The notes: generated by a model from the sequence alone, not told the origin. Counted from the first letter of the stretch, positions 22,484-40,961 are shown. The stretch: 64,000 bases of DNA from Burkholderiaceae bacterium (GCA_031253795.1 JAIRVR010000066.1:4258-68257), one strand, 5' to 3'. Numbers and translations are program-made.

Positions 22484-22717
22484 CTAGAAGCGGCGCCGGG
22501 GCAGCAGCAGGGCACAGCGCAGCAGCATCCAGGCCTGCCAGTGTTCGCGGGCTCCCGGTGTGCGGCGGGCGCGGGCCGCTGCATCGGCGATGAACAGGCG
22601 CAGGGCCCGCAGCGTTTCGCGGTCACGGCTTTGCACGGCCTGTTGCCAGACCTGTTCGCAGTGCTGGCGCTGCCGGGATGGATCGGACAGCGACTGGAGA
22701 TCGTCCAGGGCTGTCAT
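22484..22717 (-). CDS. Small hypothetical protein (77 aa) coupled to creD
   Basis: ATG overlaps the creD TGA (ATGA); fills the gap to convergent mutY. Confidence 0.55.
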   Translation of the reverse strand: MTALDDLQSLSDPSRQRQHCEQVWQQAVQSRDRETLRALRLFIADAAARARRTPGAREHWQAWMLLRCALLLPRRRF

Positions 22718-24126
22718 GGCTGCACTCCCTGCGGCATGGCGGGGGCGTCGCTGTCCTGGCGTCCGAAGGCATACCAGTCCACATGGCGCGTGCAGACCAT
22801 GATCACGGCGAGGGCGCCGAACAGTGCCAGCGACCCCACGATCAGCGCGCCCTGCTCCAGTTGCAGCAGGACGTAGAGCAGGCCATAGAGCGAGGCAATG
22901 CCGGCCGCGAAGGGCAGACCTCGGCGCAGGCTGCCCAGGATGTGGCTGGCGTAGTAGCCCAGCAGCAGCACACAGGCGCCGGCCGCCAGGCCATAGGCGA
23001 TGGAAAAGCGCAGGTGTTCGGACAGGCTGACCAGCAGCAGGAAGAAGCTGCACAGTGCCGAGCCCACAAGCAGGTACTGCACGGGATGCACGCGCAGGCG
23101 CTTCAGCACTTCGAAGAGGCCGACGGCCACGAAGGTCAGCACCACGAAGAGCAGGCCGTATTTGGTGGCGCGATCGCTCAGCGAATAGGGATTGATGGGG
23201 TCCACGAAGTCGGTGTCCACCGACTCCAGACAAGGCCCGCCCGAGGCCGCCTGGGCGGGGCTCGCATAGTCGTCGATGCCGCGCCGGCTGGGCTGGCACA
23301 GCGGCTGCTGATCGCTGAAGGCCTGGCGTGCCGACGAGGCCAGGGAGGAGAGGTTCCAGCTGGCGTTGAAGCCCTGGCTGCCGACTTCGCGCTGGTTGGG
23401 CAGAAAGCTGCCGCCGAAGGAGGGGTGCGGCCAGTCGGCCGACAGCTGGACCTGGCTGTGGGTTCCCAGCGGAACGAAGGCCAGCTTTTCTGTTCCCACC
23501 AGTTCCAGGGCAATGCTGAGTTCCAGTGGTCCGCTGGCGGGAATCTGGTGGCGTGCCAGCGTGGCCTGCAGGCCCTGGGAATAGCGCTCCAGCGACGTGC
23601 CTGGTCCCACGTCCAGGCTCTGGCCCTGCACGTCGATGCTGGCCGAACGGATGCCTCGCGGGTCGCTCAGCGACAAGGCCACGCGCAAGGGACCGCACCG
23701 CACGGTCTGTTCGGCCGTGGCCTCGGAGGCCGGGCGTTCCAGAAAGCTGGCAACGTTGGCGAAGCTGGCGCTGATGCGATCCTGCATGGCATAGGTGCTG
23801 ACATGGTGCAGCCCCCGGGAGCGCTCCTCCATGCGAGCCCTGGCTTCATGGCGCAACTGGTCGGGCAGCAGCATGCGCTGGAAGGGCCGCGTGGTCCATT
23901 CGGTCTTGCTGCCGTTCTTCAGGCCCGTGGTCTCGGTGCAGTTTTGCACCAGCACCGGCCCCATCAGGGTCTGGCGGCCGGCGAGACTGGCGACCACGCC
24001 CTGCACGGCGTTGTCGCGGTTGCGTATGCGGTCCTGCACCACGTCGTGGATCAGGCCCAGGCCCAGCATCAAAAGGCCCAGCATGGCCAGCAGGGCCACG
24101 GCCTTGGTAAACATTCGGTTCTTCAT
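22714..24126 (-). CDS. creD: Inner membrane protein CreD
   Basis: WPHPSFGG.FLP, DRATKYGLLF, HPVQYLLVG, LLVSLSEH. Confidence 0.95.
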   Translation of the reverse strand: MKNRMFTKAVALLAMLGLLMLGLGLIHDVVQDRIRNRDNAVQGVVASLAGRQTLMGPVLVQNCTETTGLKNGSKTEWTTRPFQRMLLPDQLRHEARARMEERSRGLHHVSTYAMQDRISASFANVASFLERPASEATAEQTVRCGPLRVALSLSDPRGIRSASIDVQGQSLDVGPGTSLERYSQGLQATLARHQIPASGPLELSIALELVGTEKLAFVPLGTHSQVQLSADWPHPSFGGSFLPNQREVGSQGFNASWNLSSLASSARQAFSDQQPLCQPSRRGIDDYASPAQAASGGPCLESVDTDFVDPINPYSLSDRATKYGLLFVVLTFVAVGLFEVLKRLRVHPVQYLLVGSALCSFFLLLVSLSEHLRFSIAYGLAAGACVLLLGYYASHILGSLRRGLPFAAGIASLYGLLYVLLQLEQGALIVGSLALFGALAVIMVCTRHVDWYAFGRQDSDAPAMPQGVQP

Positions 24127-24192
24127 TCCACATCCCGGTCGTTGATCGTGGGACGCAGTCTGTTCAGGGCGCGTGTGGGGGAAATGAAGTCT

Positions 24193-24208
24193 GTGAAGCC
24201 GGTGTGAA
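24193..24208 (-). promoter_or_regulatory. cre-tag (CreB binding site) upstream of creD
   Basis: Minus strand TTCAC-ACCGGC-TTCAC, an exact TTCAC-N6-TTCAC match. Confidence 0.8.
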
Positions 24209-24241
24209 GCGGGCCGGCCCGCGTGCGTGCAGAACACGCCC

Positions 24242-25699
24242 TCAGGCCGGCCGGCCCCAATCCAGGGTCACGCGCAGGCCGGGGCAGGCATGGGCCACCT
24301 GCATGCTGCCGCCGTGCAGCAGCATGATGCGCAGAACGATGGACAGGCCCAGGCCCGTGCCGCTGCGCTCGCCATTGGGGCGTGGCGTGGTGAAAAAGCG
24401 CTCGCCCAGGCGGCCCAGCAGGGCATCGGGCACACCGGGGCCATGGTCGCGCACGCTGACGCGTCCAGGCGCCAGATCCACCTCGATGGTGCTGCCTTCG
24501 GGCGCGAAATCGATGGCGTTGCTCAGCAGGTTGCTCAGGGCCAGCACCACCAGATCCTGTTCCCAGGGCCCGCTGCTGTCCTGCCCGTGCAGGCGCATTT
24601 GCAGGTGGCGCTGGCGGGCGGTGTCGCCCAGCTGCCGCATGGCCAGTTCGGTGCAGGCCCGCAGGCTGCAGGGCGCCGGGACATGCAGGCCGCGGCGCTG
24701 CTCCAGCTGGCTCAGCCGCAGCAGCTGGTCAACGAGGTTTTGCAGGCGCTGGCACTGGTCCACCACCTGCCGGGCAAACACGGTCCGGTCGGCGGGGGGC
24801 AGGTCGTCCTGCAGCAGTTCGCCCGCGCCACGTATGGCGGCCACGGGGCTTTTGAGCTCGTGGGTGAGGGCGCGCACATAGCCTTCGATGTAGTCACGTC
24901 CCTCGAGGCGGCCGCGCATGTTCTCCATGGCGCGCGCCAGCTCGCCCAGCTCGCCCGGCATGGAGGGGGCTTGCAGTCTCGGAGCCGCCGATACCGGCGA
25001 GGCGGCCTCGTTCAGCGTGGGCGCCTGGACCTGCTGGGCATAGTTGCGCAGGCGCCGCACATGCAAAACCAGCCACCAGGTGACGGCAAAGCCCACGCCG
25101 GCCGACAGCAGCAGGAACAGCAGGCCGCCGCGCAGCATCTTGCTTTCGGCGCTGTCGATGATCTGCTGCACCGACCGCGCCGGCTTGGAGGCGGTCAGCA
25201 CGCCGGCGATATGCCCATCGACCAGGATGGGCGCCGAGACATACATCACGCTGCTGGCCTCGTCGTACTGGACCTCGCGCGTGGTGCGCGCTCCGTACTC
25301 GCCGCGCAGCGTGCGGTACACGTCGCGCCAGCGCGAATAGTCGGCCCCCTGGTCCGTTCCCGCCGAGTCGAAGAGCACGCGGCCCTGCGCGTCGGTGACC
25401 GTGATGCGCATGTCCAGCCGTGTCTTGCGCGCGTCCCAGATCCAGACCTGGACCGACTGCCCCGCATAGGCGCGCATCTGCCGTGCGAAACGGCTGGCGT
25501 CGCCCCCCTGCTGCAGGCTGCCGTCGGTCAGGTCGTCGCTGGCCACGGCGGCCAGGGCGTAAGCGGTCTCCACCAGGGTGTCCTCGGTCACCTTGCGCAC
25601 GCTGGGCTTGACCTCGACCATGAACACGCGCAGCACGAAGAAGGCGGCCAGGCCGTTGATGACGAAGAAGGCAAACAGCAGGCGCAGGCCCAGGTGCAT
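24242..25699 (-). CDS. creC: Sensor histidine kinase CreC
   Basis: DYSRWRDVYRTLRGEYGAR periplasmic motif, LTHELKSP, NAIDF, GTGLGL. Confidence 0.95.
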   Translation of the reverse strand: MHLGLRLLFAFFVINGLAAFFVLRVFMVEVKPSVRKVTEDTLVETAYALAAVASDDLTDGSLQQGGDASRFARQMRAYAGQSVQVWIWDARKTRLDMRITVTDAQGRVLFDSAGTDQGADYSRWRDVYRTLRGEYGARTTREVQYDEASSVMYVSAPILVDGHIAGVLTASKPARSVQQIIDSAESKMLRGGLLFLLLSAGVGFAVTWWLVLHVRRLRNYAQQVQAPTLNEAASPVSAAPRLQAPSMPGELGELARAMENMRGRLEGRDYIEGYVRALTHELKSPVAAIRGAGELLQDDLPPADRTVFARQVVDQCQRLQNLVDQLLRLSQLEQRRGLHVPAPCSLRACTELAMRQLGDTARQRHLQMRLHGQDSSGPWEQDLVVLALSNLLSNAIDFAPEGSTIEVDLAPGRVSVRDHGPGVPDALLGRLGERFFTTPRPNGERSGTGLGLSIVLRIMLLHGGSMQVAHACPGLRVTLDWGRPA

Positions 25700-25714
25700 G
25701 GCGGTGCCCGCTTC

Positions 25715-26425
25715 TCAGTCCGGCAGGTTCAGGCTGTAGCCCATGCCGCGGTGCGTGGCGATGAAGTCCTGCCGCGGCGCCAGTGCCCTGAGCTTGGCCC
25801 GCAGCGTCTTGACGTGGGTGTCCACGGTGCGGTCCGTGCTCTCGCTGTCCTGGCCCCAGACGCTGTCGAGCAGGAACTCGCGGCTCAGGATGCGGCCCGG
25901 CCGCTCCAGCAGGCAGCGCAGCAGCTGGTATTCGCGCCGCGTCAGATCCAGCGGCAGGCCATGCATGTGCACGCGCTGACCCTGGGCGTCGATGCTGAAG
26001 ACTCCCCCGGGCTGTGTCGGGGCCGCTGCGGCGAAGTGCCGGGCACGGCGCAGCAGGGCCCGCGTGCGTGCCACCAGCTCGCGCGGGCTGAAGGGCTTGC
26101 TCAGATAGTCGTCGGCGCCCAGCTCCAGGCCCAGGACACGGTCCATTTCCTCGCCGCGCGCGCTCAGCACCAGCACCGGCACGGCACTGCCCGCGGCGCG
26201 CAGCTCGCGACACCAGTCCAGGCCATTGCCGTCGGGCAGGCCCACATCGAGCAGCAGGGCGTCATGGGGCTGGGCCCGCCATTGCGCCCGGGCATCGGCC
26301 AGCTGCAGGCTGTGTTGAACGGCGATGCCGTCGCGCTCCAGCGCATAGCAGACCGTGCGCGCGATGGCGGGGTCGTCTTCCACCAGCAGCACGCGTGCGC
26401 GGCCTGGAGAGGGCGTTTCCTGCAT
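25715..26425 (-). CDS. creB: Response regulator CreB
   Basis: REC (LDVGLPD) plus OmpR wHTH (DRTVDTHVKTLRAKL); directly upstream of creC. Confidence 0.92.
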   Translation of the reverse strand: MQETPSPGRARVLLVEDDPAIARTVCYALERDGIAVQHSLQLADARAQWRAQPHDALLLDVGLPDGNGLDWCRELRAAGSAVPVLVLSARGEEMDRVLGLELGADDYLSKPFSPRELVARTRALLRRARHFAAAAPTQPGGVFSIDAQGQRVHMHGLPLDLTRREYQLLRCLLERPGRILSREFLLDSVWGQDSESTDRTVDTHVKTLRAKLRALAPRQDFIATHRGMGYSLNLPD

Positions 26426-26441
26426 GGCGGGGCGCGTGCGC

Positions 26442-27341
26442 CTAGGCCGACGGGGGCGGCGGGGACAGCAGGGGCTGGGGTCGGCTGTCCAGTGAACGGT
26501 GGCGGCGCAGCGTGGGCCAGCGCTGCGCGAAATGGCGCGCCAGCTCCTCGACCAGGAACACGGAACGGTGCTGGCCGCCCGTGCAGCCGATGGCGACGGT
26601 GACATAGCTGCGGTGGTTGCCAGCCATCATTTCCAGCCAGGATTCGAGGAACTGCTGTATGTCCAGCCGCATCTTTTCCACGCCGGGCTGCTGGCGAAGG
26701 AAATCGGCCACGGGTGCGTCCAGTCCGGTCAACGGACGCAGGTCGGTCTCGTAGTGCGGGTTGGGCAGCATGCGCACGTCGAACACATAGTCCGAATCCG
26801 AGGGCAGGCCATGCTTGAAGCCGAAGGACTGGAAGACCAGGGTCATCTGTCCCACGGGCTCGGCGATCATTTCCTTGATGTAGCTTTGCAGCTGGGACGA
26901 GCGCAGATGGCTGGTGTCGATGACATGGGACTTGTCGCGCAGTTCGCCGAGCAGTTCGCGCTCGTTCTCTATGTCCTGCACCAGGGCCCGCCGGCCTTCG
27001 GCCACCGGCGCCTGGGACAGTGGATGGCGGCGGCGGGTCTCGGAAAAGCGGCGCACCAGGGTGCCCGTGGTCGCGTCCAGGAAGATCAGATGCGGCACCA
27101 CGCCCAACTGCTGCAGCCTCTCCAGCTGCATGGGCAGATGGGGCAGGCTGCCCGCGCTGCGCGCGTCCATGGCGATCGCCACCTTGTTGCTGTGGCGGCC
27201 ATGTTCGAGGGCGACAAAGGAGGACAGCAGCTCGGGCGGCAGATTGTCCACGCAGTAGTAGCCTGCATCCTCCAGAGCGTGCAGGGCCACGGACTTGCCG
27301 GATCCGGACATTCCGGTGATCAGCACGATTTCGAGCGACAT
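26442..27341 (-). CDS. rapZ: RNase adapter RapZ (YhbJ) family P-loop protein
   Basis: [40 protein letters not shown]. Confidence 0.95.
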
Positions 27342-31116: not shown

Positions 31117-31195
<79 letters not shown>

Positions 31196-31207
31196 TCGTT
31201 TGGTATG

Positions 31208-31242
31208 AAAAGCCTGCCTCCTCCAAAGGGGCAGGCTTTTTT
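31208..31242 (+). terminator. Intrinsic terminator after tRNA-CAT
   Basis: AAAAGCCTGCC...GGCAGGCTTTTTT. Confidence 0.85.
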
Positions 31243-31306
31243 GCATGCGGCGGCACGGCAGTTGCCGTGCCCTGCCGCCGATGTCCATTGCACGGAGGAA
31301 ATCCCT

Positions 31307-31780
31307 GTGACCGCCTTGCCACCGCTGCAGATACGCCCTGTGCAGCTGTCCGACTTCGACCCCTGGCTTGCCTTGTGGGATGGCTATAACGCCTTTTACG
31401 GACGCAGTGGTGCCACGGCCCTGCCGCCGGAGATCACGCGCACGACCTGGGAGCGCTTGCACAATCCGCTGGAGCCTGTATTCGCCCTGGTGGCGGAAAG
31501 CCAGGGCGAGCTGGTCGGGCTGACCCACTACCTGTTCCACCGCAGCACCACGCGCCTGGGCCCGGTCTGCTATCTGCAGGACCTGTTCGCCGATGCGCGC
31601 CGACGTGGGCAAGGCATCGGCAAGGCGCTGATCCACGGAGTCTACGAGCAGGCGGCGCGGGCCGGCGCAAGCCGCGTTTACTGGCAGACCCAGGCCGGCA
31701 ACGAGGCCGGGCGCGCGCTGTACGACAAGGTGGCCGAGCATCGGGGCTTCATCGTTTACGGGCACGAGATCCAGGCCTGA
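31307..31780 (+). CDS. GNAT family N-acetyltransferase
   Basis: YLQDLF, RRGQGIG acetyl-CoA motif, N..GRALYDK; GGAGG RBS before GTG. Confidence 0.9.
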
Positions 31781-31920
31781 GTCTCCGGGGGGCTAGTCCT
31801 TCCCTGCATCCCGGTCAAAAGCGTTTAACCCGCAGGAAACCCCCTGTCCGGGTCGCGCGGCCGTGGTCTTGTAATGCAATCCCACATCGCCGGCCCAAGC
31901 CGGGCCGCAGGGACAGGAAC

Positions 31921-33504
31921 ATGGGACTCGCCAACTTGAACATCGCACGCCGCCTGGCCGTGGGCTTCGGCCTTGTCATCGTGCTGCTGGGGGCCATCAC
32001 GGCCATCAGCCACAGCCAGCTGGTCCGTCTGCAGGACAGCATCGTGCGCGTGACGCAGCAGCGCTACCCCAGCACCGTGCTGGCCAACAGCATCCAGATC
32101 CAGGTCAACAAGATCGCGCTGGATCTGCGCGATCTGATGCTGACCGATGACGCGGCCAGGATCCAGGCTCTGGTGCAGGACGCCGCGGCAGCGGACGAGA
32201 AGATGCACGCCGGCCTGCTGCGCATGGCCGAGGCGGCACACACCGCGCAGGAAAAGCAGAAGGTCCAGGCCACGCTGGCCGCGCGCGATGCCTACGTGCC
32301 CGTGCGCGACGGCCTGCTGCGGCTGGCGCTAGAAGGTCGCGAGGGCGAGGCCAGGGCCTACCTGCATGCACGGTTCATGCCGCCGCAGATCCAGTACTTC
32401 ATCGCGCTGGATGCCATGTTCGACCACCAGGGAGCCCTGATGGATGCGGCCGGCAACCAGGCCGTGAAAGAGGCCGTGCATGCCCGCACCCTCATCCACG
32501 CGCTGGCGGCGGCGGCGCTGGTGCTGAGCGCCCTGGCTGGGTGGCTGGTGTCGCGCAGCATCACGCGGCCGTTGACGGAGGCGGTCCAGGTGGCCCACCG
32601 CGTGGCCGAGGGCGACCTGGGAGTGCGGGTTCCGGTCCGCTCCCGCGACGAGACCGGCCAGCTCATGGCGGCACTGCGTGCCATGAGCCACAGCCTGGGC
32701 GCCATCGTGCGCCAGGTGCGCGAGGGCACGGACACCATCGCCGTGGCATCGAGCGAGATCGCACGTGGTGGCATGGACCTGTCGTCGCGAACGGAGCAGC
32801 AGGCGAGTGCCCTGGAACAGACGGCGGCCGCCATGGAGCAGCTGACCAGCGCCGTGCGCGGCAACGCGGTCCACGCCGGACAGGCCAACGAATGGGCCGT
32901 GGCCGCTTCGGCCGTGGCGGGCCAGGCAGGCCAGGCCATGGGGGAGGTGGTGGAGACCATGGGGGCCATCAAGCGCTCGTCGGACCGCATCGTGGACATC
33001 ATCGGGGTGATCGACGCCATCGCCTTCCAGACCAATATCCTGGCACTCAATGCCGCGGTGGAAGCGGCCCGCGCGGGCGAGCAGGGCCGGGGCTTCGCCG
33101 TGGTGGCCGGCGAGGTGCGACTGCTGGCACAGCGCAGCGCCGAGGCGGCCAGGGAAATCAAGGCTTTGATCACCGATGCCGGGGCCAACGTGGACCATGG
33201 CAGCGCCCTGGTCGGCCGGGCCGGTGCGACCATGGCCGAGGTGGTGGGCAGCGTGGAGCGCGTGGCCGGTGCCGTGGGCGAGATCAGCCGCAGCAGCCAG
33301 GAGCAAAGCCGCGGCATTGCCGAAGTCAGTGCCGCCGTGGGGGGGATGGACCAGACCACGCAGCAAAACGCCGCCCTGGTGGAAGAGACGGCCGCGGCGG
33401 CGCGGTCGCTGCAGGAACAGGCGGCCAGGCTGGCGCATCTGGTGACCGTGTTCCGCCTGGAGGCGACGCCACCTGCCCGGCTGCCTGCACCGGCGGCTGC
33501 CTGA
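31921..33504 (+). CDS. Methyl-accepting chemotaxis protein (4HB sensor, HAMP, signalling domain)
   Basis: Two TMs flanking a long periplasmic domain, [40 protein letters not shown]. Confidence 0.95.
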
Positions 33505-33569
33505 GTTTTTCAAAAAAATGGCATATTTAGCCGGAAGCGCCGCGCGCCGCTGCTACAATGCGAAGCGTT

Positions 33570-33646
33570 GCGGCTGTAGCTCAGCTGGATAGAGTACTTG
33601 GCTACGAACCAAGGGGTCGTGGGTTCGATTCCTGCCAGCCGCACCA
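33570..33646 (+). tRNA. tRNA-Arg(ACG)
   Basis: GCGGCTG/CAGCCGC acceptor, CTTGG-CTACGAA-CCAAG anticodon arm, CCA end; TGcTACAAT promoter upstream. Confidence 0.97.
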
Positions 33647-33654
33647 TCAAACGC

Positions 33655-33689
33655 AAAGCCCTGGAGCTGAAAGACTCCAGGGCTTTTTC
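33655..33689. terminator. Bidirectional-type intrinsic terminator between tRNA-Arg and the CHASE2 kinase gene
   Basis: AAAGCCCTGGAG...CTCCAGGGCTTTTT. Confidence 0.85.
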
Positions 33690-33732: not shown

Positions 33733-36147
33733 CTATGCCTGCTGCTGCGGACCCGCCACCGGCCGAAGAATGGGCAGCACGATGGCAAAGCTGCTGCCCT
33801 GGCCCGGCGTGCTGCGGATCTCCAGCCGGCCCCCGTGGCGCTCGGCCACGGTGCGTGCAAAGGCCAGGCCCAGGCCCACGCCGTCGAGCCGCTGGTGCTG
33901 GTCCAGGCGCTCGAAGGGGCGGCTCAGGCGCTGCACGGCCATGGCGTCCATGCCGGGGCCCTGGTCGCGGATCTCGATGCGGCCGCTTTCGCCGTCGGCC
34001 TGCACCAGGCAGTGCACGGTCGCTTCGACCTCTTGCGCCGCGCCGCTGGCCATGTCGCTGCCAGCTGCATTCTTGCGGCCGTATTTGATGGCATTGCCTA
34101 TGAGGTTGACGGCTGCCCGGTGCAGCAGGCCGGCATCGCCCACGACCTCGATGGCGTGTTCCGGCAGGCTGAACTGCAGGCGCACCTGGGCGGCCGATGC
34201 CTGGGCCCAGCAGCTTTCCACGGCCTGGTCGAGCACGACGCCCAGGTCCAGTGGTTCGCGGCGCAGGCTTTGCTGCTGGGCGCGTGCCAGGTGAACGAAG
34301 TCGTCGGCCAGCTTCAGCGAGGATTGCGCATAGCCTGCTATGCGTGGCAGCAGCATGTCGCCAGCCGTGCCTGCGGCCGCGCCCGACGGGCCGCGCTGCA
34401 TTTCGAGCAGGGTGATGATGGAGGCAATGGGCGCGCGTATGTCATGGGAGATGAACTCCATGGCCTGGTCGCGCTGGGCCTGGGTGTGGCGCAGTTCGCT
34501 GATGTCGACCAGGGTGATGAGCCAGCCCTGGGTGGGAGGCGCCTCGAAGGCCTGGGCCAGCAGCATCAGATGGCGGTCCTGGGCATCGCTCCCCTCGCTG
34601 CTGGCGGGCAGGCTGCCCTGTGCCAGGGCCTGGGCCGTCAGCAGCACGCGGCCGGGTGTGGCGTCGCTGGCAGGCGTTTGCAGACCTTGCAGCAGCCGGG
34701 GCAGGTCGTCGCCGGGCTGGAGGCCATGGCCCAGGCTGGCGGCATAGGCGTGGGCTGCGGCATTGGCCAGAAGCACCCGGCCCTGGCGGTCGCAGACAAA
34801 GGTGGGCGAAGGCAGTTGGCGCAGGCTTTCGCTGACGAAATGGTGCAGGGAGCGCAACTGGTGCGAGGCCTGTTCCACCGCGGCAATGCGCTGGTCCAGC
34901 AGGTCGCCTCCCAGGCTGGCCGACATGGTCAGGCCCTGGCCGCGCAGGTCGCGCAGTTCCAGGGCCAGGAAACGCGCCGCGGCGCGCAGACGCAGCCAGC
35001 TCCACAGCGGATAGGCCAGGGCCAGGCCCACCAGGGCGGCAGCGGGCGCGGTCTGGACCTGCCACAGGCGCGGGGCCAGGCCTGCCAGCATCAGGCTGGC
35101 CAGGGCCAGCAGCAGGCAGGCCAGCATGCCGCCCGAGGGACCCAGCCAGGCCAGGGCCAGCAGGGCGGCCAGCACCGGGGCGAGGTTGAGGGCGCGGTCC
35201 AGCGAGGCAGCGGCGGGCTGCAAATGGGTGTGCTGCAGGTTGCCGTTGAGCACATGGGCCAGCAGCTCCACGCTGGGCACGGGGCGCGTGGACGCACCCA
35301 GCGGCGCCGTGAACCAGGTGCCCAGACCGGCGGCCGTCGTGCCGATGAGCACGTATTTGTTGCGGAACGCGGCCGCGGGAATCTTGCCGCGCAGCACGTC
35401 GATGTAGGAATAGGTGGTGAAGGGCGCGGTGCCGCCTGGGCCGTCCGTGCGCGGCGGTTGGGCGAAGGCGATGATTTCGTACTGCCCGCGCGTCCAGGCC
35501 GAAGGGCTGGCCGGAGCCTGGGGCGGGGGCTGGACACAGGCACGGCCCGTTTCGCCCAGGCAGTGCAAGGCCATGGCCATGTGCCACCAGGGGGCGGCCG
35601 CCGGGCCCTCCAGGGCGTAGAACCCCCGCACTTCGCCGTTGGCATCGACGGGCAGCTGGGTATGGCCCAGGCCGGCGGCGGCGTCCGCCAGGGCGGGCAG
35701 CGGCGCCATGCCCGGTGCCACGGGCAGCACGGTACGGCCGTTGGCGCGCAGGCTGCGCGCCAGGAGCAGGTCATCGCCGGGGTAGTCCCAGTCCTCTTCG
35801 CTGAACACCACGTCCAGGCCGATGGCGCGTGGTGGCGCCTGGGCGATGTTTTCCAGCAGGGCCGCGTGCAGGGCACGGCGCCAGGGCCAGCGGCCTATGG
35901 CGGCAATGCTGGCATCGTCGATGGCAACGACCACGATATCGGCCGATGCCCGGGGCTGGTGCAGCCAGCTGGCGGCGTCCTGCACCAGGTGGTTGGCGCG
36001 CGGCAGCTGGCCGGGGCCGCTGAGCCAGAACACCAGGGACAGCAGGCCGGCCGCCAGCAGGGCCCAGTCACGGCGCAGCCCGTGGCGCCGCGAAGGCCGC
36101 GGGGGCGCCGCCGTGGTCATTGCGTGTTCGGGCGGGGACGGCTCCAT
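33733..36147 (-). CDS. CHASE2-domain sensor histidine kinase (CHASE2, 3 TM, PAS-like, HisKA, HATPase)
   Basis: IVVVAIDDASI..IGRWPWRR, IGLDVVFSE, KYVLIGTTA CHASE2 motifs; FISHDIRAP H-box, NAIKYG, DQGPG, GVGLGL. Confidence 0.92.
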   Translation of the reverse strand: MEPSPPEHAMTTAAPPRPSRRHGLRRDWALLAAGLLSLVFWLSGPGQLPRANHLVQDAASWLHQPRASADIVVVAIDDASIAAIGRWPWRRALHAALLENIAQAPPRAIGLDVVFSEEDWDYPGDDLLLARSLRANGRTVLPVAPGMAPLPALADAAAGLGHTQLPVDANGEVRGFYALEGPAAAPWWHMAMALHCLGETGRACVQPPPQAPASPSAWTRGQYEIIAFAQPPRTDGPGGTAPFTTYSYIDVLRGKIPAAAFRNKYVLIGTTAAGLGTWFTAPLGASTRPVPSVELLAHVLNGNLQHTHLQPAAASLDRALNLAPVLAALLALAWLGPSGGMLACLLLALASLMLAGLAPRLWQVQTAPAAALVGLALAYPLWSWLRLRAAARFLALELRDLRGQGLTMSASLGGDLLDQRIAAVEQASHQLRSLHHFVSESLRQLPSPTFVCDRQGRVLLANAAAHAYAASLGHGLQPGDDLPRLLQGLQTPASDATPGRVLLTAQALAQGSLPASSEGSDAQDRHLMLLAQAFEAPPTQGWLITLVDISELRHTQAQRDQAMEFISHDIRAPIASIITLLEMQRGPSGAAAGTAGDMLLPRIAGYAQSSLKLADDFVHLARAQQQSLRREPLDLGVVLDQAVESCWAQASAAQVRLQFSLPEHAIEVVGDAGLLHRAAVNLIGNAIKYGRKNAAGSDMASGAAQEVEATVHCLVQADGESGRIEIRDQGPGMDAMAVQRLSRPFERLDQHQRLDGVGLGLAFARTVAERHGGRLEIRSTPGQGSSFAIVLPILRPVAGPQQQA

Positions 36148-36168
36148 GGCCTTTGTGCGGCAGCCGCA

Positions 36169-37953
36169 TCACTGGCGCTGCAGCCGGTCCCCATGGCCCA
36201 TGTGCAGCATGCGGCCGCTGGCGTCGGTGATCCAGCTGCCGGTCTGGAACTGGCGCGCTGCCGAGAATTCGCTGCGCAGGCCGTTGGCATCCTCGATCTG
36301 CAGGCGCATGAAGTAGTTGCCCGGCGGCAAGGCCTCGGTGCTCCATTCGGGACGGTCCACCCAGACATCGACCAGGGGCTGGGCAAAGTCCTGGCCGCTG
36401 GCAGCCTGCACGCGGTAGCGTTGGCCGGCTTCGCCGCTCCAGCGGATATGGCGGCTGCCCTGGCCCTGGCCACCGTCGAGCTGCAGGGCATCGGCCGAGG
36501 GCTGGCGTGGCGCGACAGCCAGTTGCAGGCCCTGGGGCGCGGCGAACGGACCCTGGTCGGCCTGGCCATCGGGCAGCAGGCGCACGCTGGCCGCACGCCA
36601 CAGGTAGCGGCCGGCCGGCAGGGAAGCCAAGGCCTCGGCCGCCAGGCCGCAGTCCTGCAGGTCCCGGGCGTCCACCACGGGATGGGCGAAGGCGTCCGCA
36701 TCCGGCGCGGCGGCGGCTACCTGAATGCGATAGCGCGCCGCGCCGACGACGCGCGTGCACTGCAGGCCCGCACGGCCCAGGCCGACGACGGCGTCGGCGG
36801 CCGGCGCCTCGTACAGCGGCGGCACGGGATGGGCCTTGACGCGCAGCGCATGGCTGCTGGCGCGTCCCGGCACGCCCTGGGCGTCGACGCCGCGGATGGA
36901 CAGCACGTAGTCGCCGTCCTCCACGCCGGACAGGCGCAGGGGCGAGGCCGTGAAGCTGCCGTTGCGCAGCACCTGGGTCAGCTCGGCATCGCGGGCCAGC
37001 ATGACCTGGTAGCGCACGGCGCCTGCTTGCGTGGGCAGGGGCAGGCTGACCCAGTTGGCATCCTCGGCCAGGGCGGGCCATGCGCTGGTGTCCGGCGCAT
37101 CGAGCATGTCGCGGGCCTGTCCAATGCGGCCATCGGCCGCCACGGCCAGGCCCTGGCCAGGGTGCAGCAGCGTGCCGCCACCCTGGGCCGCAGGCAGGGT
37201 GGAGTCGACAGCGACCGAGCCATGGTCCACGGCCGCGACAGTACCCGTGCCTGAGTCCGCATCGCCGTGGGTCTGGACCAGAAAGCGCGTGCCGCGCACG
37301 CTGGTGGATGCCGCGGGTGTGCGGATCTCGAAGCGGCGCTGGCCGGCCTGGGCATCGGGTGCCACCGTGGCCTCTACGCTGCCCTCGCGCAGGTCCAGCA
37401 CGGACTGCAGACTGCCGGCACGGCCCTTGCGGCGCATCTGGCGCAGCAGCACATCGGACTGAGACTGGACACGGACCAGGGATCCATCGGCCAACCGCAC
37501 GGCGACGAAGGCATCGGGCGCCAGCTGCAGGCGGTCCCCCTCCTGCAGGGCCTGACCCTGGCGTACCGGGCTGGGCGCCACGCCGGTTGCGGGGGTGTCA
37601 GCCAGGTGGTCGAGGGGGCGCGAGGCGCGCACGTCACCCTGCACGAATTCCACGGAGGCGGCCGCGGCACGCAGCAGGCGGCTGGGAATTTCCAGCACCG
37701 AGCCGGGGCGCAGGCGATAGGGATTGGCCACCCCGTTGTGCTGCTGCAGCAGCGACCACTGGCGGTGGTCGCCCAGATAGCGGGCTGCCAACTGCTCCAG
37801 CGTGTCACCGGCCACGACGCGGTGGGCGATCACGTCGCCGCCGCGCGGCATGGGCGTGATCTGGGCCTGGGCCGCACCCATGGCCAGCAGCGCGTAGGCC
37901 AGGGCGGGGCCGCGCCAGCGCGACGGGAGGCAAGGCGACGGCAGGGCTGTCAT
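36169..37953 (-). CDS. Exported LysM + FecR-domain protein with C-terminal Ig/Fn3-like repeats
   Basis: Signal peptide; LysM (HRVVAGDTLEQLAARYL...NPYRLRPGSVLEIP); FecR (EGDRL...DGS...FEIRTP...VRGTRF); three Y.V.....G.Y beta repeats. Confidence 0.85.
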   Translation of the reverse strand: MTALPSPCLPSRWRGPALAYALLAMGAAQAQITPMPRGGDVIAHRVVAGDTLEQLAARYLGDHRQWSLLQQHNGVANPYRLRPGSVLEIPSRLLRAAAASVEFVQGDVRASRPLDHLADTPATGVAPSPVRQGQALQEGDRLQLAPDAFVAVRLADGSLVRVQSQSDVLLRQMRRKGRAGSLQSVLDLREGSVEATVAPDAQAGQRRFEIRTPAASTSVRGTRFLVQTHGDADSGTGTVAAVDHGSVAVDSTLPAAQGGGTLLHPGQGLAVAADGRIGQARDMLDAPDTSAWPALAEDANWVSLPLPTQAGAVRYQVMLARDAELTQVLRNGSFTASPLRLSGVEDGDYVLSIRGVDAQGVPGRASSHALRVKAHPVPPLYEAPAADAVVGLGRAGLQCTRVVGAARYRIQVAAAAPDADAFAHPVVDARDLQDCGLAAEALASLPAGRYLWRAASVRLLPDGQADQGPFAAPQGLQLAVAPRQPSADALQLDGGQGQGSRHIRWSGEAGQRYRVQAASGQDFAQPLVDVWVDRPEWSTEALPPGNYFMRLQIEDANGLRSEFSAARQFQTGSWITDASGRMLHMGHGDRLQRQ

Positions 37954-38663
37954 GGCTGGTCGGGCCGGGTTTCAGGGGCGGGATCGGGCACATCGAGGCG
38001 GTAGCCATAGCCATAGACGGCGCTGATGGCATAGGGCTGGCCCGCGCGCAGGTTCAGCAGTGCGCGCAGGCGCGAGATATGGGTGTCCAGCGAGCGCGAC
38101 TGCACCTCGGCGTTGTGGCCCCAAACGGCTTCGCGCAGGTGGTCGCGGGACAGCAGGCGGCCCTGGTTCTGGAACAGGGTCAGGGCCAGCATGTACTCGC
38201 GGTGCGTCAGTTCCATGGGTTGGCCATGGACTTCAAGGCTGTTGGTGGCCGTCTGAAAGCGGTAGGGGCCGAACTCCATCACGCTTTGCGTGTTCACCGG
38301 ATAGGCGCGACGCAGCAGCGCCGCGAGTCGTGCGCGCAGCTCGCCGTGGCGAACGGGCTTGACCATGAAGTCGTCCGCACCGCAGGCCAGGCCTTCTACG
38401 ATGTCGGCCTCTTCGCTGCGGTGGGTGACGATGAGCACGGGCAGCTCCTTGCTGACATGCTCGCGCACCCAGCGCACCAGGTCCGTGCCCTCCATGTCGG
38501 GCAGGTGCCAGTCCACGATCAGCAGGTCGAAGCTTTCGCGGCGCAGATCCTGCTGCAGGGCGCCACCCGTCGTATAGGCATGGCAGCTGTGGCCTGCTTC
38601 CAGTGCAACCTGGCGCAGCATGTCCAGTTGCAACTGATCATCGTCCAGAGCAGCGATACGCAT
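37950..38663 (-). CDS. OmpR-family response regulator
   Basis: MRIAALDDD, VDWHLPD, GADDF.VKP, SRSLDTHISRLR, YGYGYRL; ATGA overlap with the next gene. Confidence 0.93.
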   Translation of the reverse strand: MRIAALDDDQLQLDMLRQVALEAGHSCHAYTTGGALQQDLRRESFDLLIVDWHLPDMEGTDLVRWVREHVSKELPVLIVTHRSEEADIVEGLACGADDFMVKPVRHGELRARLAALLRRAYPVNTQSVMEFGPYRFQTATNSLEVHGQPMELTHREYMLALTLFQNQGRLLSRDHLREAVWGHNAEVQSRSLDTHISRLRALLNLRAGQPYAISAVYGYGYRLDVPDPAPETRPDQP

Positions 38664-38751
38664 CCCAATGTCCTTTCATGCGGGAGCCGGTGGAACCGGC
38701 CCCGATGTAGCGGGCAAGCTGCCCGTGAATTCGCAGTGTCCCAAACAGAGC

Positions 38752-40059
38752 TTACCCCTGCTCCGCAGCCTCGCGCAGCTGCTGCAGGGCGGCCAGGGCA
38801 AGCGCCTGTTGCTCGCCGGCGAAGGGCTGCAGGCGTGCCTGCAGGTCGGCCAGCGCCTCGGCGCCCTCGCGCTGCAGCCGGCCTATGGCCTGCCCGGCCT
38901 CCTTGGGGGCGTCGAAGCCCAGGCTCTGCAGCAGCAGCGCGCCATCGGCCGCCACCAGCTTGAAGTAGAACTTGCCATCGGCTTCGCGGTATTGCTTGAA
39001 CTGGGGCAGGGCCTGGCGTGCGGCCTTGGCCTTTGCGCCACCGGCCGCCTGTGCCAGGTTGCGCAGGCCGACGGCGCTGCGCAGCTCGCGCACGAAGGGA
39101 GTGGCCAGCCTGCGTGCCTTGGCGGCGCCGGCCTGCAGGATGTCTTCCAGCTCGCCGGGATGGGCCACCAGGTGTTCGTAGCGCTCGCGCATGGGCGCCA
39201 GCTCGCGGTCTATGCGTTCGAACAGCAACTGCTTGGCATCGCCCCAGGCAATGCCCTGCTCGTACTGGCGGCGAAGCGCCCCGGTTTCCTCTTCGCTGGC
39301 GAAGCCCTGGTAGATCTGGAACAGGGCCGAGCCTTCGACTTCCTTGGGCTCTCCGGGCGCGCGCGAATCGGTGGTGATGCTGTTGATGAGCTTGCGCAGC
39401 TGATCGCGCGCAGCGAACAGCGGAATGGTGTTGTTGTAGCTCTTGCTCATCTTGCGGCCGTCGAGGCCCGGCAGCGTGGCCACGTTGTCCTCGACCTGGG
39501 CCTCGGGCAGCGTGAAGAATTCGCTGCCATAGAGGTGGTTGAAGCTCGATGCCATGTCGCGCGCCATCTCGATGTGCTGCACCTGGTCCCGGCCGACGGG
39601 CACCTTGTGGGCGTTGAAGATCAGGATGTCGGCGCCCATGAGCACGGGGTACATGAACAGGCCGGCCGTCACACCGTCATCGGTTTCCGTGCCTGCCGCG
39701 TGGTTCTTGTCGACGGCGGCCTTGTAGGCATGGGCGCGGTTGAGCAGGCCCTTGCCCGTGACGCATGTCAGGAACCAGCACAGCTCGGGGATTTCGGGAA
39801 TGTCCGACTGGCGATAGAAGGTCACATGCTCGGGGTCCAGGCCCGCGGCCAGCCAGCTGGCGGCGATTTCGATGGTCGAGCGCTGCACGCGCGCGGGGTC
39901 CTGGCACTTGATGAGCGCGTGGTAGTCGGCGAGGAAGTAGAAGTTCTCGACCTCGCGCGAACGGCTGGCGGCAATGGCCGGGCGCAGCATGCCTGCGTAG
40001 TTGCCCAGGTGCGGGGTTCCGCTGGGAGTGATGCCGGTGAGAAAGCGCGTTGTGCTCAT
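38752..40059 (-). CDS. trpS: Tryptophan--tRNA ligase with C-terminal extension
   Basis: TPSGTPHLGNY (HIGH), YPVLMGADIL, VPVGRDQ, KMSKS. Confidence 0.97.
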   Translation of the reverse strand: MSTTRFLTGITPSGTPHLGNYAGMLRPAIAASRSREVENFYFLADYHALIKCQDPARVQRSTIEIAASWLAAGLDPEHVTFYRQSDIPEIPELCWFLTCVTGKGLLNRAHAYKAAVDKNHAAGTETDDGVTAGLFMYPVLMGADILIFNAHKVPVGRDQVQHIEMARDMASSFNHLYGSEFFTLPEAQVEDNVATLPGLDGRKMSKSYNNTIPLFAARDQLRKLINSITTDSRAPGEPKEVEGSALFQIYQGFASEEETGALRRQYEQGIAWGDAKQLLFERIDRELAPMRERYEHLVAHPGELEDILQAGAAKARRLATPFVRELRSAVGLRNLAQAAGGAKAKAARQALPQFKQYREADGKFYFKLVAADGALLLQSLGFDAPKEAGQAIGRLQREGAEALADLQARLQPFAGEQQALALAALQQLREAAEQG

Positions 40060-40124
40060 GACAGGAAACTGCAACAGGGAAATAAAGGGAGGGGCGGGGC
40101 GGATGGCGCAGGCCAGCCGCCACC

Positions 40125-40793
40125 TCAGCGCAAAAGTGCGATCAGGGGAGTCAGGACGAAATCGATGACCGCATAGCCGAGGTCCATCAGCGGCCGCAGC
40201 CACAGGCTTCCGACCACGCCGGCGATGACCAGGCCCATGACGATGAAGAACCCCCAGGGTTCGATGCGCGCCACCCACTGCGCCTGGCGCCAGGGCAGCA
40301 GGCCGACGAGGATGCGCCCACCGTCGAGCGGCGGCAGGGGGAACAGGTTGAAGGCCCACATCACCAGATTGACCAGGATGCCGGCGCGGCACATTTCGAG
40401 GAAGAAGCGTTCGCTGACGCCTGAACCGACCAGGGCGACCAGGACGATGCCCCAGAGCAGGGCTTGGGCAAAATTCGAGGCCGGGCCTGCCAGCGCCACC
40501 CAGATCATGTCGCGCTTGGGGTGGCGCAGCTGGTCGAAACGCACGGGCACGGGCTTGGCATAGCCGAACAGAAAGCTGCCCGAGGTGGCGAAGTACAGCA
40601 GCAAGGGCATCAGGATGGTGCCTATGGGATCTATGTGCTTGATGGGATTGAGCGTGATGCGTCCCAGCATGGCCGCCGTGTTGTCGCCGAAATGGCGTGC
40701 TGCATAGCCGTGGGCGGCCTCGTGCACCGTGATCGCGAAGAGCACGGGCAGGGCATAGATGAGTACGGTTTGTATGAGGTTGGAGATGTCCAC
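40125..40793 (-). CDS. Site-2 protease (M50) family protein
   Basis: HEAAH zinc motif, AGPASN, NLFPLPPLDGG; GTG start inferred. Confidence 0.92.
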   Translation of the reverse strand: MDISNLIQTVLIYALPVLFAITVHEAAHGYAARHFGDNTAAMLGRITLNPIKHIDPIGTILMPLLLYFATSGSFLFGYAKPVPVRFDQLRHPKRDMIWVALAGPASNFAQALLWGIVLVALVGSGVSERFFLEMCRAGILVNLVMWAFNLFPLPPLDGGRILVGLLPWRQAQWVARIEPWGFFIVMGLVIAGVVGSLWLRPLMDLGYAVIDFVLTPLIALLR

Positions 40794-40961
40794 GGCGGGC
40801 ATTGTCTCAGACGCGGCCTGCCCCCGTGCCGGGCGGCCCCAGAGCCCGAGGGGCGGCATGGCTCTCTAGAGGTTTCCAGCGATTGGCAAGTCCGGGTGTA
40901 TGTTGCAAAATGAAACTTCATTCTTGACAGGCCTTCGGGCCGCGCGCACAAGGGGTGGAAC

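What the first reader, a model, noticed from the sequence alone, without database searches (positions are those of the whole stretch)
33733..38663. Response regulator / LysM-FecR-Fn3 protein / CHASE2 kinase: candidate cell-wall-anchored three-component signalling system
Seen: a tight operon (ATGA overlap, then a 21-nt gap) of an OmpR-type regulator, a 594-aa exported protein with LysM, FecR-like and three beta-sandwich-like repeats, and a CHASE2-3TM-PAS-like kinase. There is no ECF sigma or TonB-dependent receptor nearby, and the FecR protein lacks a cytoplasmic anti-sigma region. Established: LysM binds peptidoglycan; classical FecR relays signals from TonB receptors to ECF sigmas; CHASE2 ligands are poorly defined. 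Inference: the FecR domain acts as a periplasmic protein partner of CHASE2, reporting cell-wall state or surface contact to phosphotransfer. I recall similar gene triads in other proteobacteria, so the mechanism rather than the arrangement is the likely novelty.
Basis: partly seen in the sequence, partly recalled or inferred. Interest (0 to 1): 0.7.

Follow-up and report, generated by a model that had tools for sequence, protein, structure and literature searches.

The report
BiofilmReg-type envelope sensor operon
These three genes are a Delftia/Comamonas-type copy of an already published operon (gene regulator, exported LysM-FecR protein, CHASE2 sensor kinase); what is still open is how it senses, and the exported protein keeps an invariant Gly-Thr site at which related FecR proteins cut themselves, so it likely works as a self-cleaved, wall-attached input for the kinase.

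Summary
In detail: intact OmpR-type regulator, exported LysM-FecR-3xFn3 protein and CHASE2 kinase, with an ATGA overlap and a 21-nt gap, and no ECF sigma or TonB receptor found on the contig. The arrangement is not new. It is the three-gene form of the Burkholderia 'BiofilmReg' operon (PMC5192318), and Burkholderia proteins from such a locus hit these three genes best. The scan also noted this cassette before on other DNA. No mechanism was found in print. Added here: gene order is kept in 22 of 22 same-genus loci fetched; 39 of 40 family genomes with the LysM-FecR protein have a CHASE2 domain, against 29 of 60 without it; the protein stays beside CHASE2 when the output is GGDEF-EAL instead of a kinase; and its Gly221-Thr222 aligns with the mapped self-cleavage site of E. 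coli FecR and is invariant, although the fold does not need it. Against an obligatory pair: 17 of 41 family copies have no adjacent CHASE2, and 26 of 40 sampled CHASE2 loci have no FecR neighbour. Binding, cleavage, signal and regulon are untested. Known operon, new host family, one testable mechanistic lead.

The parts
37950..38663 (-). OmpR/PhoB-type response regulator, 237 aa, phospho-acceptor Asp51
   Evidence: best genome hit of the B. thailandensis operon regulator, 49% identity, E 1.6e-61
36169..37953 (-). Exported LysM-FecR-3xFn3 protein, 594 aa (COG4254-type as named in PMC5192318); start overlaps the regulator's stop (ATGA)
   Evidence: best genome hit of the B. thailandensis protein, 31% identity, E 5.4e-41
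37864..37953 (-). Likely Sec signal peptide, residues 1-30 (AQA|Q)
   Evidence: sequence and relatives, by eye
37684..37824 (-). LysM domain, residues 44-90
   Evidence: Pfam E 1.3e-7; LysM structures
37105..37662 (-). FecR domain (fold of the PupR juxta-membrane subdomain), about residues 98-283; no STN subdomain follows
   Evidence: Pfam E 9.5e-14; 6ovm_R Z 16.2, rmsd 2.2, 132 aligned, PupR range 111-262
37288..37293 (-). Gly221-Thr222 in the VRGT motif: candidate self-cleavage site
   Evidence: aligns with E. coli FecR Gly181-Thr182; invariant; between two strands in the model
36235..37104 (-). Three fibronectin type III-like domains, about residues 284-573
36172..36234 (-). Conserved C-terminal tail (xSGxxLxSGxG-like consensus), function unexplained; replaced by a hydrophobic membrane anchor in some relatives
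33733..36147 (-). Sensor histidine kinase, 804 aa: TM, CHASE2 (about 35197-36012), three TM, PAS-like, HisKA (His568), HATPase
   Evidence: best genome hit of the B. thailandensis kinase, 30% identity, E 2.1e-68
33655..33686 (.). 12-bp hairpin between the kinase stop and the converging tRNA-Arg; likely terminator closing the operon
   Evidence: found on +; a T-rich tail on the minus side is seen in the sequence
33570..33646 (+). tRNA-Arg(ACG), downstream boundary, present in 17 of 22 same-genus loci

Best explanation
This is an intact three-gene BiofilmReg-type operon whose exported LysM-FecR-Fn3 protein likely acts as the periplasmic input of the CHASE2 kinase: it would hold on to the cell wall through LysM, likely cuts itself at Gly221-Thr222 into two pieces that stay together, and would contact CHASE2 through the FecR domain, so that a change at this joint would switch phosphotransfer from His568 to Asp51 of the regulator. 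Shown here: the genes, domains, catalytic residues, conserved order, relationship to the Burkholderia operon, statistical linkage to CHASE2 and the invariant Gly-Thr. From established knowledge: LysM binds peptidoglycan; HisKA kinases phosphorylate co-encoded OmpR-type regulators; FecR and FoxR self-cleave at this Gly-Thr. Inferred: direct contact, cleavage in this protein, the nature of the signal, and an envelope or biofilm regulon. The operon assignment is about 0.9 likely; the confidence below is for the partner mechanism.
For: Order regulator-FecR-CHASE2 in 22 of 22 same-genus loci fetched and 5 of 7 loci from other families of the order. In 100 family genomes, one per genus, 39 of 40 with the LysM-FecR protein have CHASE2, against 29 of 60 without; the exception has a truncated gene. 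A FecR-like ORF lies in 14 of 40 CHASE2 loci and 0 of 40 CHASE (PF03924) control loci. The protein stays beside CHASE2 when the output changes: of 22 non-standard partners scanned, 19 are GGDEF-EAL, 1 GGDEF, 2 hybrid kinases. Some CHASE2 neighbours are little more than a FecR domain (ORFs of 164-185 aa). One 99%-complete same-genus genome has lost the FecR gene and keeps only scraps of regulator and kinase between trpS and tRNA-Arg. FecR-domain distances track CHASE2 distances better than LysM or Fn3 do (partial correlation 0.41 against 0.03-0.29 in 55 loci). RGT is present in 29 of 29 loci not selected on the motif and 119 of 120 database homologues, aligns with FecR Gly181-Thr182 (site from PMC12036975), and the fold exists without it in PupR.
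Against: 17 of 41 LysM-FecR places in the family draw have no CHASE2 gene within about 5 kb, and 26 of 40 CHASE2 loci have no FecR neighbour, so neither needs the other next door. In FoxR and PupR the partner-binding surface needs the STN subdomain (PMC7186176, PMC11637429), which this protein lacks, so any contact is of a different kind. Most of the overall co-divergence contrast comes from one clade of 12 loci; without it the length-matched values are 0.67 against 0.61. Kin are not independent in any of the counts. The window's protein has no membrane anchor, so what would hold its C-terminal piece is unknown. The only phenotype in print is one polar insertion, with no complementation described in the text read (PMC5192318).
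Confidence: 0.45

Rival explanations
1. The LysM-FecR-Fn3 protein is a co-transcribed envelope scaffold or adhesin-like output. CHASE2 senses its own ligand, and the two never touch.
For: 16 intact copies stand without any signalling gene detected beside them, 10 of them behind a molybdopterin-synthesis gene. 26 of 40 CHASE2 loci lack a FecR neighbour. Leptospira FecR-domain surface proteins are described as adhesins (PMC13719327), and the domain hits Lsa33 and LipL45 models below cut-off. PMC5192318 drew the two proteins as sensing different signals.
Against: A mere output would not be expected to follow CHASE2 across kinase, GGDEF-EAL and cyclase outputs, nor to occur almost only in genomes that have CHASE2 (39 of 40).
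Confidence: 0.27
2. The protein is a relay for a third, unlinked component (an outer-membrane protein, lipoprotein or incoming protein signal). LysM only positions it, and wall state is not the signal.
For: S. meliloti CHASE2 cyclases need the outer-membrane receptor NsrA and respond to a protein signal (PMC7529298, PMC13001267). [quoted passage not shown] Burkholderia adds a DUF4136 lipoprotein gene. CHASE2 neighbours without LysM exist.
Against: No fourth gene follows here, and the Burkholderia DUF4136 protein found no match in this 59%-complete genome. LysM is detected in all 29 loci that carry the full protein.
Confidence: 0.23
3. It is a detached part of iron cell-surface signalling that works in trans with a TonB receptor and an ECF sigma factor.
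For: Same fold as PupR and same Gly-Thr; the genome has many TonB receptors.
Against: No anti-sigma domain, no N-terminal membrane helix, no STN subdomain; the 8 classical FecR genes already have their own sigma and receptor.
Confidence: 0.05

Closest known systems
BiofilmReg operon of Burkholderia contaminans (BCAL1443 locus; COG4254 LysM-FecR protein; P. aeruginosa PA4035/PA4036), PMC5192318
   Same: Same order, same domains, start of the middle gene inside the regulator gene; proteins of a B. thailandensis locus with the four-gene layout hit the three window genes best.
   Different: No DUF4136 fourth gene (the three-gene form, which the paper calls ancestral); middle protein 594 aa with three Fn3 domains and a tail, against 454 aa; the paper found no copy in Comamonadaceae, where it proves common; sits 88 nt behind trpS.
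Cell-surface signalling regulators FecR, FoxR, PupR (PMC12036975, PMC11637429, PMC7186176)
   Same: Same periplasmic beta fold and the Gly-Thr at the mapped self-cleavage position.
   Different: No anti-sigma domain, membrane helix or STN subdomain; LysM and Fn3 instead; output is a kinase, not an ECF sigma; no TonB receptor linked.
S. meliloti NsrA with CHASE2 cyclases CyaD1/D2/K (PMC7529298, PMC13001267) and Campylobacterota CHASE2 cyclase clusters (PMC9239204)
   Same: CHASE2 sensors that depend on, or cluster with, an extracytoplasmic partner protein.
   Different: Cyclase output and outer-membrane partners. That NsrA itself carries a FecR domain is recalled only; its paper was not held.
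Leptospira FecR-domain proteins LipL45 and LIC_20185 (PMC13719327)
   Same: FecR domain without sigma factor, with a GT motif and reported fragmentation.
   Different: Surface proteins studied as adhesins; no CHASE2 link in the passages read.

Membership tests
BiofilmReg operon (three-gene form) | Order regulator - LysM/FecR protein - kinase on one strand, closely packed | tested here: met
BiofilmReg operon (three-gene form) | Receiver plus winged-helix regulator | tested here: met
BiofilmReg operon (three-gene form) | Exported middle protein with LysM and FecR domains | tested here: met
   signal peptide judged by eye; the COG4254 model itself was not available
BiofilmReg operon (three-gene form) | TM-CHASE2-3TM-PAS-HisKA-HATPase kinase | tested here: met
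   PAS and HisKA hits are below Pfam cut-off
BiofilmReg operon (three-gene form) | Sequence relationship to the Burkholderia genes | tested here: met
   B. thailandensis locus with the published layout: best hits in this genome for all three. One direction only; the B. contaminans record itself was not fetched.
BiofilmReg operon (four-gene Burkholderia form) | DUF4136 lipoprotein gene after the kinase | tested here: not met
   a hairpin and tRNA-Arg follow the kinase; no match in the genome
BiofilmReg operon (three-gene form) | Needed for biofilm formation | not testable with these tools
   one polar insertion in B. contaminans (PMC5192318)
FecIRA-type cell-surface signalling | N-terminal anti-sigma domain and membrane helix | tested here: not met
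   signal peptide and LysM instead
FecIRA-type cell-surface signalling | Adjacent ECF sigma and TonB-dependent transducer | tested here: not met
   none on this contig
FecIRA-type cell-surface signalling | C-terminal STN subdomain | tested here: not met
   the PupR match ends at residue 262; Fn3 domains follow
Self-cleaving FecR domains | Gly-Thr at the FecR/FoxR cleavage position | tested here: met
Self-cleaving FecR domains | Actual cleavage into two associated pieces | not testable with these tools
   needs protein work

The most novel reading that the evidence does not exclude
The FecR domain is a general self-cleaving joint, and here it is built into a tether that runs from the cell wall (LysM, on the N-terminal piece) towards the inner membrane (Fn3 rod on the C-terminal piece, ending in a membrane helix in 24 of 108 loci scored). 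Wall stretch, wall hydrolysis or surface contact pulls the two pieces apart, as TonB force is proposed to do in E. coli FecR, and the released joint switches CHASE2. CHASE2 would then be a protein-binding receptor for FecR domains across kinases, cyclases and c-di-GMP enzymes, a bacterial parallel to adhesion-receptor self-cleavage.
Probability: 0.15. Interest if true: 0.8.

Novelty: new member of a known kind. Interest (0 to 1): 0.32.

Why it matters
As a gene arrangement it adds little: it extends a published operon to Comamonadaceae. The open question is real, though. CHASE2 has no known ligand in the papers read and no sequence-detectable solved structure, and the operon is tied to biofilm formation in Burkholderia. 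The Gly221-Thr222 site gives a cheap, sharp test: one blot and one point change. If cleavage and contact hold, they would supply the input for a widespread orphan sensor family and a possible wall-tension sensor.

Tried and rejected
Complex prediction of the middle protein (mature residues 62-564, LysM left out) with the CHASE2 domain: verdict 'no answer', score 0.00 in both runs, controls not folded; not counted for or against binding. Inter-protein mutual information on 80 paired rows (about 46 effective): no signal above the re-paired control, maximum Z 6.4 against 7.2. Conserved regulator-binding motif in 54 dereplicated upstream regions of 83: top dyad in 11 sequences against 6-10 in shuffles, and it looks like trpS coding sequence. 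No sigma-70 promoter match. CHASE2 model (pLDDT 93.9): no Foldseek match at E 0.001, best structural Z 5.3, rmsd 3.6, 123 aligned; inconclusive, not a claim of a new fold. No RNA holder was listed. The search against protein representatives could not be run, so remote relatives outside Pseudomonadota were not surveyed. Literature: nine searches gave no paper testing FecR-CHASE2 contact or cleavage of a LysM-FecR protein; the library lacks most subscription papers, and the original FoxR and NsrA papers were not held. P. aeruginosa PA4032 and PA4036 mutants were near wild type in one table of a screen (PMC6605022, one passage; assay column not seen). Rejected: the 1218-aa plus-strand ORF (shadow frame); horizontal island (GC like the rest; position conserved); classical iron signalling.

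Full report
Observation. The three ORFs, their junctions and domains are as described. Catalytic residues are intact. The middle protein folds with confidence (mean pLDDT 88.9) into LysM, a FecR domain that matches the PupR juxta-membrane subdomain (Z 16.2, rmsd 2.2, 132 aligned) and three Fn3 domains. The window's contig has no TonB-receptor or sigma region-4 match, while the 8 classical FecR genes of the genome each have both beside them. The nearest named homologues are from Delftia (74%) and Comamonas.

The arrangement is published. PMC5192318 (read: parts 1-4 of 6, the whole main text; later parts with remaining references, tables and legends, and the supplement, not read) describes the 'BiofilmReg' operon: regulator, LysM-FecR protein (COG4254), CHASE2-PAS kinase and, in Burkholderia, a DUF4136 gene. 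A plasposon in the regulator abolished biofilm. The paper calls the three-gene form ancestral, reports none in Comamonadaceae and offers no tested mechanism. A 2026 review still cites only this paper for it (PMC13760557, passages). A B. thailandensis locus has the published layout; its regulator, FecR protein and kinase each hit the window's gene best and by a wide margin (E 1.6e-61 against 5.7e-28; 5.4e-41 against 6.2e-4; 2.1e-68 against 1.4e-20, one direction only). Earlier notes of this scan filed several other loci under the same operon; I had found the paper before that look-up.

Conservation. 23 of 24 same-genus genomes have the middle protein. I fetched 22 (one, split over two contigs, was left out) and all keep the order. 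The 24th genome, 99% complete, has only scraps of regulator and kinase between trpS and tRNA-Arg: one joint loss, which a single deletion could explain. Of 7 loci from other families, 5 keep the order, 1 is reshuffled, 1 has no CHASE2 beside it. A pattern scan gave 80 loci: 78 hold the FecR domain, 70 have CHASE2 next, 8 do not (2 cut by contig ends, 1 with the kinase converging).

Is the link to CHASE2 more than chance? (a) From 121 genomes of the phylum, 82 had CHASE2. I took one high-scoring locus with usable flanks from each of 40 genomes; 31 were cyclases, 4 kinases, 2 Ser/Thr kinases, 3 unassigned. A FecR-like ORF lay within the 10-14 kb fetched in 14 of 40, against 0 of 40 CHASE control loci from 29 of the same genomes. 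The profile was built from this family and may miss distant FecR domains. (b) In 100 family genomes, 39 of 40 with the LysM-FecR protein have CHASE2, against 29 of 60 without; the exception has a truncated gene. Of 9 genomes with only a FecR-domain match, 8 have it within about 5 kb of CHASE2 (read by eye). (c) The partner's output varies: 19 GGDEF-EAL, 1 GGDEF, 2 hybrid kinases among 22 scanned of 25 (3 cut ones left out). (d) Against: only 24 of 41 family places have CHASE2 adjacent (read by eye, the 17 others checked), and 26 of 40 CHASE2 loci lack a FecR neighbour. Relatives are not independent, so the Fisher values printed overstate. (e) FecR-domain distances follow CHASE2 distances more closely than LysM or Fn3 distances do (0.72 against 0.28-0.43 over 80 rows), but one clade of 12 drives most of this; the remaining effect is small.

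The Gly-Thr site. VRGT is the most conserved stretch of the protein. RGT is present in 29 of 29 loci found by whole-protein search, 119 of 120 database homologues (the other is a 366-aa partial protein), 3 of 3 annotated loci, and 77 plus one KGT of 78 pattern-scan loci, which were partly selected on the motif and do not count as independent. A profile of this family alone aligns Gly221-Thr222 with E. coli FecR Gly181-Thr182. That is the mapped self-cleavage site; the two pieces stay together, and their separation, proposed to be driven by TonB force, triggers signalling (PMC12036975, passages and Discussion). FoxR cuts at the same kind of site (PMC11637429, passages). PupR has the same fold without Gly-Thr (PMC7186176, passages, calls the residues non-conserved), so the fold does not demand the motif. 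Leptospira FecR proteins without sigma factors carry it and fragment (PMC13719327, passages). Cleavage here would give a 20.6-kDa LysM-bearing piece and a 39.2-kDa Fn3-bearing piece. In 24 of 108 loci scored the protein ends in a hydrophobic helix, which would span wall to membrane; the window's protein ends in a short conserved tail instead. All of this is inference from a motif.

How it most likely works. The middle protein is exported, binds the wall through LysM, likely self-cleaves, and likely contacts CHASE2 through its FecR domain; the kinase then phosphorylates the regulator, which by analogy with Burkholderia controls envelope or biofilm genes (0.45). Rivals: an independent scaffold or adhesin (0.27); a relay for an unlinked third component, as NsrA is for S. 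meliloti CHASE2 cyclases (PMC7529298 and PMC13001267, passages) and as suggested by Campylobacterota clusters (PMC9239204, passages) (0.23); iron signalling in trans (0.05). PMC5498481 (passages) found that an S. meliloti FecR-domain protein, SMc02177, was not needed for perception of the plant signal tested, a caution against assuming that every such protein is an input.

Verdict. A real, intact, conserved operon of a known kind in a family where it had been reported missing. The mechanism was not found in print in nine searches, with the limits of that library; supplements were not read and could hold expression or fitness data on these genes. Interest 0.32; the pull-apart model (probability 0.15) would deserve 0.8.

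Noticed in passing
window 31117-33646: A chemoreceptor gene (31921-33504, Pfam) and a likely acetyltransferase (31205-31780, judged from the translation only) sit between tRNA-Met and tRNA-Arg; in 6 same-genus loci the two tRNAs are only 114-240 nt apart, so this looks like a recent insertion.
   Followed up: partly
window 38664-40859: The operon starts 88 nt behind trpS (which carries a C-terminal DUF1508), itself behind a likely site-2 protease gene (judged from the translation). By eye 19 of 22 same-genus loci have the trpS end directly upstream, so read-through from trpS is possible.
   Followed up: partly
L235-L250: A stand-alone subfamily of LysM-FecR-Fn3 genes in the same family, with no signalling gene detected beside them; 10 of 16 lie behind a molybdopterin-synthesis gene, one in front of a cyclic-nucleotide-binding protein. 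All 16 genomes have CHASE2 elsewhere.
   Followed up: partly
L252 5851-7972 (G010): Collapsed operon: scraps of regulator and kinase in under 900 bp between trpS and tRNA-Arg, no trace of the middle gene.
   Followed up: yes
L052, L156, L164-L233: A C-terminal hydrophobic tail (PWWLLLL-like) is common where the partner is GGDEF-type (11 of 15) and rare where it is a kinase (5 of 78).
   Followed up: partly
PDB 4m0n and 4m0h: Two near-identical anti-sigma structures have Ala and Gly where FecR has the cleavage Thr; possibly made to avoid self-cleavage (my guess, not checked).
   Followed up: no
window 22714-26605: A second two-component cluster that reads like creB-creC-creD (judged from the translations only).
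   Followed up: no
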